Assembly: GCF_006345805.1 (NCBI RefSeq)
Contig: NW_021827541.1
Location: 1 to 27,474, forward strand
From: Octopus sinensis
Lineage: Eukaryota
Length of the DNA: 27,474 bases
Direction of reading: 5' to 3'
The translations under genes and the position numbers were made by a program. Positions 1,921 through 19,050 of the stretch are shown in pieces (within the stretch, counting starts at the first letter, position 1; each line of letters opens with the position of its first letter). A model generated the notes under the pieces. The model was not told the origin of the DNA. It saw only the letters and a list, made by a program, of their open reading frames with translations, and did no database searches.

Positions 1921-2400
1921 GAGCTGACCTAAAATGCCGATTCTGTAACGATGAGATTGAAACTATAGACCACCAAATCTCAGGGTGTAGAGTCTTAGAA
2001 CCTGTAGAATATAAAGCAAGACATGACAGAGTCGGCCAGTATTTACATTGGACAATATGTCGGTATTATAAAATCAAAACCGCTGACAAATGGTATAAAC
2101 ACCATCCTGAAGCTGTGACTGAGGAAGAAAACGTGTTGATTCTCTGGGATTTCCCCGTACATGCCGACAAAACTATAAAAGCCAATAAACTGGATATTAT
2201 TATAAAAGATCAGACAAAAAGATGTGTTTATTAATTGACACGTGTATCCTTTGCGATCACAATATAGCGACGAAAGAATTTGACAAGATTAGTAAATATA
2301 AAGACCTGCTAATAGAAATTGAAAAAATGTGGCATCTCAAGGCGACTACAGTACCAGTGATTGTAGGATCTCTAGGAATGTTTAAAAAGGGTACTGAAAC
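1920..2400 (+). mobile_element. Second R4/Dong-type LINE fragment: CCHC finger plus RLE domain, frameshifted, truncated at both ends
   Basis: CRFCNDEIETIDHQISGC (C-X2-C-X8-H-X4-C), EYKARHDRVGQYLHW, ILWDFPVHADKTIKANKLDIII, then a frameshift near 2220, then CLLID...KISKYKDLLIEIEKMW...VPVIVGSLG. Begins directly after (TAA)n at 1843-1919. Confidence 0.88.
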
Positions 2401-2505
2401 CATATCACATCATACCACCACGCATGCACTAGCACTGACCACTTCACAGCATCCACACCATCATCGACACAGCTACACATGCACACACGCACACGTCGTC
2501 ACCAG

Positions 2506-2560
2506 CCGTGAGGTATCGATGCTAGATGTGTCGAAACAATTGTAGTTATTAATAAAAATT
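2506..2560 (+). repeat. Dispersed 55-bp repeat (second copy 4688-4742) carrying the 3' half of a hammerhead-like motif
   Basis: 52/55 identity between the copies by eye. Contains a GATGC-TAGAT-GT(G/A)TC hairpin, then GAAACAATTGTA and AATAAA. Both copies lie just upstream of TA-rich arrays. Confidence 0.7.
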
Positions 2561-2588: not shown

Positions 2589-2637
<49 letters not shown>

Positions 2638-2642
<5 letters not shown>

Positions 2643-3196
2643 AATTTATAAGTAAGAGCAAAAGAAAAAATTTCTAATGCCAAAATATGCCGAAAATAGA
2701 CATAACGTCAATAACCTTGTACTTTATCACTACAAGCACGCGTTTCGAAGAAAGCCGACAGAAATTTCTAAAAAATCCCGTTATTACCATATCGGACCCG
2801 ATTTCAGAGTTAGTTCATAAGAACCTTCCCTTCATCAGTGATAAATGCGGCAAAGAAATAAGTGAAATACTTACTTATACCCATGGAAGAAGTGAACACA
2901 ATTATGTATCCCAAATATATCCAAAATAGAAACTTTCTAGCCCATCTCGAGACACGTGTGATTCGAACTAAAAAACTCTCGTAATGTGAGAGAGTCCGGA
3001 AGTGAACACTATTAAATTAACATCTAATGTAGGATAAACTTTTTCGAAAAAAATGTTATCAATGGCCAGCATATTAAAAAATACCTTTAAAGGTTAATTT
3101 GTAAACAATTTATAAGTAAAGGCAAAAGAAAAAATTTCTAATGCCAAAATATGCCGAAATAGACATTACGTCAATAACCATGTAATTTATCACTAC

Positions 3197-3197
<1 letters not shown>
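2638..3197 (-). mobile_element. Penelope-pLTR/retrozyme-like non-coding element: ~464-bp unit with ~96-bp terminal direct repeat, between (TA)n arrays
   Basis: 2638-2734 is repeated with few differences at 3102-3197. A hammerhead-like motif lies at 2723-2845 on the minus strand, and (TA)n flanks both sides. Confidence 0.65.
2723..2845 (-). ncRNA. Type I hammerhead ribozyme-like motif with long stem II insert
   Basis: Minus strand: TTTATCA CTGATGA AGGGAAG...(~70 nt)...CTTTCTTC GAAAC GCGTGCTT GTA GTGATAAA. Both core boxes are intact and TTTATCA/TGATAAA can form stem I, but the register is one nt off the canonical GUA site. Confidence 0.55.
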
Positions 3198-3252
<55 letters not shown>

Positions 3253-3351
3253 TATTGTATGTTATATACACATACACACACACGCACATATATATAACAT
3301 ATATACATATGTCTGTGTGTGTTGTGTTGTGTGTGTGTGTGTGTGTGTGTA

Positions 3352-11884: not shown

Positions 11885-12575
11885 TAACAGGGCTGCAGTT
11901 TACTCGAACCCGAAAGGATGTGTGAGGCCTTTCAACAGCACTTTGCACGACTGTTTGGTGCGAGTGGTGGGTCGGAACGCGGGATGGATTTCAGTGCCTA
12001 CCTGACCGGCCTGCCGCGGCTCTCGGCAAGAGAAGCGGAGTATTGTGAGGGTCCCATCACAGCTGCTGAAGTACGGGATGCGATAGCGGGCTGAGCGAGG
12101 GATAAGTCGCCTGGTCTACCCTACGAGCTATATTGTCAAATGCCAGACTTGTTTGGCGACCTCTTGGTATCCGTCTACTGCATCTGGCAACAAAACGGGA
12201 GAATCCCCGGTTTTGTGAGCCGAGGTGCAATGATGTTGCTGAAGAAAGACCCAAACAAGGGGAATTTTATAGATAATTTCAGGCCCATCATTCTGCTCAA
12301 CGCAGATTTGAAAATTTGGATCAAAGTAATAGGCGAGAGGTTGGCGCTTGTCATCGATAAACTGGTCGACAAGGCGCAAACATGCGCCGTGCCGGGCAGA
12401 ACCATCCATGACAACCTCCATCTGATGCGCTACATCGTGGACAGGGTAGATGAGGATCCTGGCATGGGTGGGGCGCTGATCAATTTGGATCAATCTAACG
12501 TTTTCGATAGGGTCGACCATTAGTACCTGGCGGCCGTCCCCAGGGCGGCTGGCTTTGGTCCCGTCTTCCGCGATG
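11885..12575 (+). mobile_element. Tx1/L1-clade LINE ORF2 fragment (N-terminal reverse transcriptase region), disrupted
   Basis: LPRLS..CEGPITAAEVRDAI..*..KSPG[xDG missing]LPYELY...LLKK..NFRPIILLNADLKI...QTCAVPGRTIHDN...LDQSNVFDRVDH*YL...GFGPVF. In-frame stops near 12092 and at 12521-12523. Confidence 0.88.
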
Positions 12576-18451: not shown

Positions 18452-18627
18452 AAAAATACCTTAAGAATGAGAACCCAGGTTCGAAATTTCCCCAAGACAC
18501 CTGATGAAGGCTGGAGGGTATATCAGCTGAAATGTGTTAACAATAAACAAAATGAGAACAAATATCCGTCAACTGCAAAAAATATAAATAATGTACATAA
18601 TACCCCATCTCTTAAATATAGAACTGT
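18452..18627 (+). mobile_element. Penelope-pLTR-like short element with hammerhead remnant (18496-18538)
   Basis: GACAC CTGATGA A GGCTG GAGGGTATAT CAGCT GAAA T GTGTT. Cores and stems I and II are present, but the stem III/cleavage-site nucleotides are missing. Confidence 0.6.
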
Positions 18628-18897: not shown

Positions 18898-19050
18898 GAC
18901 CTCGTTTTTTTCCGCTGTCTTCCCTTCTCTGGTTCTTTCCTTCTCCTATGTTTCCGACGAAGAGTTCCGCTCGAAACGTTCCGCTGAGCGTCCAATAATG
19001 CTATATTTGTTCCACGTCCTCGCGTTGTTGTGTTTTTTGTGCTTTCTTGT
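18898..19050 (+). mobile_element. Short repeat after (TA)n with degenerate minimal hammerhead (18954-18980)
   Basis: CCGACGA A GAGT TCC GCTC GAAACGTT. Stem III is the palindrome AACGTT; the 3' strand of stem I appears deleted. Confidence 0.55.

What the first reader, a model, noticed from the sequence alone, without database searches (positions are those of the whole stretch)
2638..3197. Retrozyme/pLTR-like element whose terminal redundancy starts at the predicted hammerhead cleavage site
Seen: a ~464-bp non-coding unit plus a ~96-bp direct repeat, with (TA)n on both sides and a CTGATGA...GAAAC...GTA motif on the minus strand. Read on that strand, the element begins TGTAGTGATAAA, within about 4 nt of the predicted GUA cleavage site of the internal motif. 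Established: Penelope-like elements and metazoan non-LTR retrozymes carry minimal type I hammerheads in tandem repeats, and retrozymes yield small circular RNAs. Inference: this copy arose by reverse transcription of a self-cleaved or circular RNA for slightly more than one round, and was inserted into (TA)n. The long stem II insert is atypical for minimal hammerheads.
Basis: partly seen in the sequence, partly recalled or inferred. Interest (0 to 1): 0.75.

Follow-up and report, generated by a model that had tools for sequence, protein, structure and literature searches.

The report
Penelope-moved retrozyme with relocated hammerhead

Summary
The repeat is real: a 558-nt, 1.2-unit copy of a dispersed non-coding ~479-nt family in (TA)n. 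Its GAAAC…GUA is not conserved (G at 'A14' in 52 of 100 copies), and copy 5' ends show no excess there (4 of 77, 3.2-4.3 expected). A compact type I hammerhead lies at 2844-2784 (minus strand), with a predicted cut at 2790|2789. It has 1003 pattern hits against 2 control hits, and stems I and II covary across families down to ~65% identity. 3' ends fall at two fixed sites ~80 nt apart. Of 94 classifiable head-to-head insertions, 93 have one arm ending at each site, a Penelope footprint. Best reading: a non-LTR retrozyme copied by a Penelope-type RT/endonuclease that starts at two internal sites, probably on a circle. Cleavage, circles and the partner enzyme are untested. This scan noted the same two-armed pattern before in other families (e1-8807173, e1-8672319).

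The parts
2640..3197 (-). Whole insertion: one arm of ~1.2 units of a ~479-nt non-coding retroelement, 5'-truncated, holding one hammerhead
   Evidence: 93.3% to family consensus; 14-nt deletion at 2900|2899
3102..3197 (-). 5' copy of the terminal redundancy (unit positions 0-97 of the earlier round); 5' end is an ordinary truncation point
2638..2734 (-). 3' copy of the redundancy (unit 1-97), ending at fixed end site A
2784..2844 (-). Type I hammerhead: stem I 2844-2839 with 2789-2784; C3-A9 2838-2832; stem II 2831-2806; G12-A15.1 2805-2802; palindromic helix III 2802-2791; H17 = A2790; predicted cut 2790|2789
2731..2746 (-).
2927..2959 (-). 5' arm (unit ~240-272) of a predicted long-range helix with 2771-2736 (unit ~442-477)
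   Evidence: fold prediction; pairing best in subfamily S3
3022..3101 (-). ~80-nt 'tail' between fixed end site A (unit ~97-104, window ~3102-3095) and fixed end site B (unit ~177, window ~3022); inferred RT start sites
2590..2639 (.). (TA)25 target microsatellite at the element's 3' end
3198..3255 (.). (TA)n microsatellite at the element's 5' end

Best explanation
The element is a 1.2-unit copy of a non-coding ~479-nt repeat family with a conserved type I hammerhead fold, inserted in (TA)n, and is likely an animal non-LTR retrozyme copied from a small RNA circle by the reverse transcriptase/endonuclease of a Penelope-like element. Steps: (1) inferred: rare source copies that hold two hammerheads (1 of 96 in the window's family; more in sister families) are transcribed and cut at AUA (unit 423|424), probably with the palindromic helices III of two motifs paired; (2) inferred: the monomer is ligated to a circle, in which the core is predicted to be held off by an alternative pairing of CUGAU with AUCGG; (3) inferred from shown ends: a Penelope-type enzyme nicks both strands of a TA tract and starts cDNA at two internal sites, A and B, 154 and 233 nt downstream of the cut, one site per DNA end; (4) shown: synthesis stops at scattered points, runs seamlessly across the ribozyme site and sometimes past one full unit, and two arms are often joined head to head, one ending at A and one at B. 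The window copy is a solo A arm; with one hammerhead it could not release a monomer by itself.
For: Hammerhead: 1003 pattern hits vs 2 control. 96.9% of cells pair in 56 near copies, 0/500 shuffles, slid controls 30-45%. With distant families 89.7% pair, with double changes in stem I (G-C 26/A-U 23 at the closing pair; U-A 44/C-G 7) and stem II (G-C 25/A-U 22; G-C 41/A-U 14; U-A 43/C-G 9) among 57 distinct rows. N7 varies among U, C and A; H17 is A, U or C in all but one of the 30 distant motifs printed. Non-coding unit kept whole in relatives at 64-86% identity. Ends: 59 A, 32 B, 5 other of 96; inverted arm at the 5' side in 56 of 96. Pairs: 93 AB, 1 AA, 0 BB of 94 classifiable among 128 (p 1e-26 vs 0.5); sister loci 12 AB, 1 BB of 13 classifiable among 18. 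Arms of one insertion share a template: same subfamily in 77 of 79, rare variants shared 13% vs 0.7%. Circle: 15 of 96 copies exceed one unit; the two rounds of an arm differ by 6.7%, the same as two arms of one insertion (6.6%) and less than random pairs (10.8%); sense-strand fold z -5.4/-6.5 vs antisense -0.8/-2.6. In print: the anole PLE protein cleaves and extends both strands, starts RT at two internal sites that define the tail, and is predicted to be a dimer (PMC11167929); a tail sits on only one of the inverted pLTRs (PMC3846280, PMC8557442); retrozymes form circles and PLEs are the proposed mobilisers (PMC7229834; 10.64898/2026.07.22.740005). Intact GIY-YIG/RT ORFs of 775-781 aa exist in this genome.
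Against: Cleavage, transcription and circles were not shown. No autonomous partner was found: no sequence similarity to 30 GIY-YIG loci, and the hammerhead model hits only 1 of 12 long-ORF loci, as a passenger copy. Copy 5' ends show no excess at the real cut (3 of 59, 1.1-1.9 expected, p 0.1-0.3; 2 of 134 pair arms), which fits a circle but also an uncut precursor; in the anole PLE cleavage was dispensable and uncut RNA was the main substrate (PMC11167929). The two rounds of an arm share fewer rare variants than two arms do (8.1% vs 14.8%, p 0.03), which a tandem linear source would also give. No long arrays: longest continuous match 824 nt among 232 loci; the one 2.2-unit copy (L385) is a later duplication (99.3% vs 94.6% between arms). 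The monomeric hammerhead is predicted 2.3-8.4 kcal/mol above the MFE with helix III probability ~0, and the first pair of stem II is A-U or a mismatch, not G-C.
Confidence: 0.68

Rival explanations
1. Same non-autonomous Penelope-dependent element, but copied from linear, uncut read-through RNA of partial-tandem sources; seamless tandems arise by re-insertion into its own AT-rich end sites, and the hammerhead only trims transcripts or needs the PLE protein.
For: Hammerhead mutants did not affect insertion by the anole PLE protein, and no RNA reads ended at the cut (PMC11167929). No long arrays. Rounds share fewer rare variants than arms. 5'-end clusters at unit 260 (6 of 34) and ~326-331 could be transcript starts.
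Against: Copies run past those clusters to -646 with no hard cap. Rounds within an arm are no more diverged than same-age arms. Core and stems have been kept by compensatory change across families down to ~65% identity, so the fold matters to propagation.
Confidence: 0.22
2. Head-to-head insertions come from fold-back (self-primed) second-strand synthesis on a single cDNA, not from two priming events by a dimer; the A/B rule then reflects where the second strand joins the target.
For: Arms share a template; their 5' ends lie within 15 nt in 15 of 93 pairs vs 7.5 expected (p 0.009); self-priming was proposed for PLE palindromes (PMC3846280).
Against: In 78 of 93 pairs the 5' ends differ by more than 15 nt, often by hundreds, and either arm can be the longer one. 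Solo copies end at both A (81) and B (38) of 131. Both sites are RT start sites in vitro for the anole PLE (PMC11167929).
Confidence: 0.12
3. The sequence is only the terminal repeat (pLTR) of an undetected coding Penelope-like element, left as truncated ends.
For: pLTR-like size, hammerhead, tail, inverted arms and (TA)n target match PLE ends (PMC8557442). Genome searches scored only the best candidates (40 of 3853).
Against: Long copies continue upstream into the same unit, not into an ORF. Relatives at 64-86% identity keep the same closed unit. tblastn with two PLE proteins hit 10 of 387 family loci, at scattered places that I did not map one by one.
Confidence: 0.06
4. One reading: hammerhead with a ~75-nt stem II insert cutting at GUA 2733-2731, with this copy's 5' end set by that cut.
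For: The motifs and an 8-bp inverted repeat are present in this subfamily; a few arms begin at unit 3-5 (6 of 69 arms listed between -40 and +40).
Against: Wrong register at C3 or H17; 25-36 kcal/mol penalty; 'A14' is G in 52 of 100 copies and '16.2' is A in 43 (counted by hand); motif not kept in sister families; no excess of 5' ends.
Confidence: 0.02

Closest known systems
Animal non-LTR retrozymes (Cervera & de la Pena 2020, PMC7229834, abstract and passages read; Li, Clavereau & Pollet 2026, 10.64898/2026.07.22.740005, parts 1-3 of 5 read)
   Same: Non-coding repeat of a few hundred nt, GC 34%, one type I hammerhead per unit, highly self-paired predicted fold, dispersed monomers and partial tandems, co-occurring with PLEs.
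   Different: Unit 479-504 nt (above the 170-400 nt of PMC7229834, within the 51-972 of the preprint); mostly under 2 units, no arrays seen; strict two-site 3' ends and head-to-head arms in (TA)n were not in the passages read; circles and cleavage not shown here; no cephalopod example found in print (1 paper listed, Craig et al.).
pLTR and tail of EN+ Penelope-like elements: PAc of Anolis (PMC11167929, parts 1-2 of 4); Adineta Penelopes (PMC3846280, passages); (TA)n-targeting Neptune, Hydra and Naiad clades (PMC8557442, passages, section 11, supplement rows)
   Same: 5' truncation, partial tandems, inverted 5'-truncated arm, two alternative 3' ends with the tail on one arm only, AT-rich target, hammerhead upstream of the RT start sites and spanned by most copies.
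   Different: No ORF; closed unit; tail ~80 nt rather than 30-40; cut-to-end distance 154/233 nt rather than ~85-92; no sequence match to the PLE loci examined.
Minimal PLE hammerheads, min-HHR (Cervera & de la Pena 2014, PMC4209133, parts 1-2 of 4)
   Same: Type I order, palindromic helix III suited to dimers, an extra nucleotide after A9 followed by a conserved G-C pair.
   Different: Helix III has 4 bp plus a 3-4 nt loop (not minimal); stem I is 6 bp; a second extra nucleotide precedes G12, so the first 'pair' of stem II is A-U here and C-A or A-A in older families; cleavage triplet AUA/AUU/AUC (AUA is natural in ELVd(+), PMC1636495 abstract; a U-U mismatch at this pair is natural, PMC3088659 section 8).
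Non-autonomous Chlamys PLEs such as MRC1 (PMC8557442, passage)
   Same: Non-coding elements that form pLTRs and head-to-tail insertions using PLE machinery.
   Different: Those generally resemble their autonomous partner at the 3' end and most Chlamys lack hammerheads; here the hammerhead is conserved and no partner was matched.

Membership tests
Type I hammerhead ribozyme | CUGANGA, GAAA and UH in C-G-S order around three helices | tested here: met
   core columns 0 of 12 variable among 7 consensuses (three of them came from a pattern that fixed part of the core)
Type I hammerhead ribozyme | Covariation in stems I and II | tested here: met
   (A3 is fitted to the model; A2 and A4 are plain MAFFT)
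Type I hammerhead ribozyme | G10.1-C11.1 as first pair of stem II | tested here: not met
   first position A-U in this family, unpaired in 37 of 57 rows (distant set was selected for non-U there); G-C follows in 50 of 57; natural exceptions in PMC3088659
Type I hammerhead ribozyme | Match to an Rfam hammerhead model | tested here: not met
   no hammerhead hit at E<=10 on the element, none at gathering on 5 sister loci
Type I hammerhead ribozyme | Site-specific self-cleavage | not testable with these tools
   needs in-vitro transcription
Animal non-LTR retrozyme | Non-coding, multi-copy repeat unit of a few hundred nt with one type I hammerhead per unit | tested here: met
Animal non-LTR retrozyme | Tandem copies with at least two hammerheads | tested here: met
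   L323, L399, L400, L401 at 497-504 nt, L417, L420, L418, L371; rare in the window's own family (1 of 96); the window copy has one
Animal non-LTR retrozyme | Expressed as linear and circular monomer RNA | not testable with these tools
   only assembled contigs of runs not on record as RNA were available
Penelope-mobilised non-autonomous element | 5' truncation, inverted arm, two alternative 3' ends with tail on one arm, microsatellite target | tested here: met
Penelope-mobilised non-autonomous element | Sequence shared with the pLTR of an autonomous PLE in the genome | tested here: inconclusive
   none with 30 GIY-YIG loci and 12 long-ORF loci of 5029 first-look candidates
Autonomous Penelope-like element | RT plus GIY-YIG ORF | tested here: not met
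   longest frame 83 codons; long copies continue into the unit itself
Non-circularly permuted (type-SGC) hammerhead | S-G-C block order with pseudoknotted core (PMC10085705) | tested here: not met
   one CUGANGA in the unit, and its partners follow in the ordinary C-G-S order

The most novel reading that the evidence does not exclude
An old, diversified cephalopod-type retrozyme superfamily whose RNA circle is copied by a dimeric Penelope enzyme with a strict division of labour: each of the two nicked target strands primes at its own site, A or B, on copies of one template, which gives the 93-of-94 A+B rule. Its hammerhead, which carries a free nucleotide on both sides of the G-C pair of stem II, is locked off in the monomer and switched on only when two palindromic helices III meet, so self-cleavage would count copies.
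Probability: 0.35. Interest if true: 0.72.

Novelty: new member of a known kind. Interest (0 to 1): 0.48.

Why it matters
How animal retrozymes are mobilised is open: PLEs are the proposed carriers, on co-occurrence and pLTR similarity (PMC7229834; 10.64898/2026.07.22.740005). This family records the insertion step directly. Two fixed 3' ends and a near-absolute one-arm-per-site rule match what was measured in vitro for a PLE protein (PMC11167929), on a template with no ORF. It therefore gives a short natural RNA substrate, two predicted RT start sites and one predicted cut site to test. The covarying series of hammerheads also offers natural variants at the 10.1/11.1 position and at H17. The kind of element is known, and this scan has seen the same footprint in other families, which caps the surprise.

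Tried and rejected
For a while I read the GAAAC/GAGAC split between subfamilies as loss or regain of a ribozyme core. That reading fell once the real core was found; those bases lie on a long-range helix. Type-SGC permutation: not present. Rfam: no hammerhead hit. Partner search: GIY-YIG loci gave no blastn match; L387 holds a family copy twice beside a 781-aa ORF, but inside a 5.9-kb duplication with other passengers, 1 of 12 long-ORF loci; a Pfam accession recalled from memory was not in the library. L385 as proof of rolling-circle copying: rejected as a later duplication. A-to-I editing imprint: A>G 1.64% vs T>C 1.28% on the sense strand, p 0.003 uncorrected, with T>G over A>C equally skewed; not pursued. 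Expression: no RNA holder listed; the runs laid are contigs and show no ends or strand. Lunse et al. 2017 (PMC5785218) is not held, so its variant catalogue was not seen. Dfam and Repbase could not be searched, so the family may already have a library name. Two scripts failed on a regex slip, and the script machine was lost; the planned stem I count was done. Supplements: only File S1 rows of PMC8557442 were seen; those of the bioRxiv preprint are closed and may list related families.

Full report
Observation. The window holds a 558-nt non-repetitive insert (2640-3197) between two (TA)n tracts. On the minus strand its first 96 nt recur at its end with 93.8% identity, and no frame exceeds 83 codons. 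Rfam finds no hammerhead.

It is a family. A DNA search of the 2.7-Gb own genome gave 3853 first-look candidates; the 40 scored matched over most of the query at 84-93% (the window itself 100%). An alignment of 30 loci gave a 479-nt unit, GC 34%; the window copy has a private 14-nt deletion. Exact anchors gave 76, 127 and 187 hits, with 0 control hits each. These anchors favour young copies. Contigs of public runs under four organism labels also hold the family. The host looks octopus-like; that is a guess from the repeats and from earlier scan notes, not tested.

5' ends are scattered; 3' ends are fixed. I mapped the first 100 listed hits of an anchor at unit 40-62; 99 were recovered and 3 segmental duplicates dropped, leaving 96. 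5' ends run from +37 to -646. 3' ends fall at site A (88-112) in 59, at site B (160-190) in 32 and elsewhere in 5; 60 of 96 are followed by TA-rich sequence, and 56 of 96 have an inverted piece of the element at their 5' side. 15 of 96 are longer than one unit and 1 holds two hammerheads. The longest continuous match among 232 loci is 824 nt; no arrays were seen. An apparent pile-up of arm starts at unit 2-5 partly dissolved when arms were re-mapped to their own subfamily: 6 of 69 arms between -40 and +40 start at 3-5, with similar counts elsewhere.

Its register leaves an unpaired G after GUA, and the constrained fold costs 25-36 kcal/mol. Of the first 100 of 181 copies listed by a pattern that left the core free, 52 have G at 'A14' and 43 have A at '16.2' (counted by hand). 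Whole subfamilies carry these states, and G14 also occurs in a group nested in the window's subfamily. These bases pair in a predicted long-range helix with unit 240-272, best in subfamily S3.

The real hammerhead. An earlier scan note on permuted hammerheads (e1-9040678; PMC10085705, abstract and passages) made me list every GAAA in the unit. The same CUGAUGA (2838-2832) closes a compact type I hammerhead in the ordinary order: stem I 2844-2839/2789-2784, stem II 2831-2806, GAAA 2805-2802, a palindromic helix III and AUA, with the predicted cut at 2790|2789. It is the only hit of a generic descriptor in the window; 0 of 2000 shuffles of the element give one. A pattern for it gave 1003 hits vs 2 control and revealed sister families. 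On 56 aligned copies 96.9% of cells pair (0/500 shuffles; slid controls 30-45%), with double changes in stem II and distal stem I. A second pattern found more distant families, 93 hits vs 2 control, 64-86% identical to the unit and still non-coding closed units in the loci printed. With them stem I covaries too: closing pair G-C 26/A-U 23, and U-A 44/C-G 7 among 57 distinct rows (that alignment is fitted to the model, plain alignment). Related sequences can beat the shuffle control without structure, so the weight lies on the repeated double changes. Atypical: the first position of stem II is A-U here and C-A or A-A in older families, followed by a conserved G-C; natural mismatches there are known (PMC3088659, section 8), as is the AUA triplet (PMC1636495, abstract). 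The monomer is predicted 2.3-8.4 kcal/mol from the active fold because CUGAU pairs with AUCGG, while two helices III form a -16 kcal/mol duplex. Copy 5' ends show no excess at the real cut either (3 of 59, p 0.1-0.3).

The two-arm rule. Among 128 head-to-head pairs in the loci then held, 94 had both ends classifiable: 93 had one arm ending at A and one at B, 1 was AA and none BB; solo copies were 81 A, 38 B and 12 other (p 1e-26). Sister loci gave 12 AB and 1 BB of 13 classifiable among 18. Arms of one insertion belong to the same subfamily in 77 of 79 cases and share 13% of rare variants against 0.7% between insertions. In print, the tail is described on only one of the inverted pLTRs (PMC3846280, PMC8557442; passages). 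The anole PLE protein cleaves and extends both strands, starts at two internal RNA sites that delimit the tail, is predicted to be a dimer, and does not need hammerhead cleavage (PMC11167929, parts 1-2 of 4). The rule itself is shown here; that A and B are RT start sites used by a dimer is inferred. Earlier scan notes report the same pattern in other families (e1-8807173, e1-8672319, e1-8665226); I tested it only in this one and its sisters.

Circle or linear template. For a circle: seamless passage across the ribozyme site, no cap at unit length, persistence of the closed unit over long divergence, conservation of the fold, strand-specific folding (z -5.4 and -6.5 sense vs -0.8 and -2.6 antisense), and equal divergence of rounds and arms (6.7% vs 6.6%). 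Against: rounds share fewer rare variants than arms (8.1% vs 14.8%, p 0.03), no arrays, and 5'-end clusters at unit ~260 and ~326-331 that remain unexplained. The one 2.2-unit copy is a later duplication. The circle is the likelier reading but is not shown.

Partner. The genome has young PLEs with 775-781-aa RT/GIY-YIG ORFs, some ending in (TA)n. Their CxxC-type linker suggests Neptune, a label I take from PMC8557442 and recall, not from a tree. None of 30 GIY-YIG loci resembles the unit, and the model hits only a passenger copy at L387. Octopus Naiad and Hydra families that target (TA)n are listed in File S1 of PMC8557442 and were not tested.

Novelty. Retrozymes, PLE hammerheads and the one-sided tail are all in print. 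I found no cephalopod retrozyme (one paper listed) and no quantified two-arm rule for a non-coding element in the passages read; repeat libraries could not be searched.

Noticed in passing
window 18501-18535 (+): Another hammerhead-like relic (CUGAUGA…GAAA, short stem II) resembling the motif at L264; probably the end of a different Penelope-type family.
   Followed up: partly
window 18955-18980 (+): Damaged minimal hammerhead (U4 changed) resembling the family at L263/L265/L267, followed by a T-rich stretch and a microsatellite ~75 nt later.
   Followed up: partly
window 1960-2545 (+): Decayed coding fragment beside the element that reads like the C-terminal zinc-finger/endonuclease part of an R2/R4-type retrotransposon (recalled resemblance; no Pfam hit).
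   Followed up: partly
window 12095-12520 (+): Reverse transcriptase fragment, Pfam RVT_1 E 2e-7.
   Followed up: partly
L387 (G000:C1:207472000-207481500): A 5.9-kb tandem duplication that spans a two-ORF GIY-YIG/RT element (479 and 781 aa) together with flanking passengers, including a copy of this family; may be 3' transduction or a segmental duplication.
   Followed up: partly
L240, L253, L254, L255, L394 (3' ends of the 780-aa GIY-YIG/RT family): These elements end with a U3-A8 core-variant hammerhead-like motif ~55-60 nt before the (TA)n; L254 has it duplicated.
   Followed up: no
family unit positions ~260 and ~326-331: Clusters of 5' ends (6 of 34 at -218 to -220; several at -147 to -154, a CCATGG palindrome); could be RT stops, fold-back points or transcript starts.
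   Followed up: partly
family unit 223-272 vs 442-490: Inverted similarity inside the unit (8 of 500 shuffles score as high), best paired in subfamily S3; possibly an ancient head-to-head insertion frozen into the unit.
   Followed up: partly
L229-L232 (G000:C10:60.23-60.34 Mb): The same insertion occurs four times within ~110 kb, i.e. a local segmental amplification.
   Followed up: no
L407-L436: Older sister families with H17 = U or C (AUU, AUC triplets) and a mismatch at the first position of stem II; AUC is described as essentially absent from natural hammerheads (PMC1636495 abstract).
   Followed up: partly
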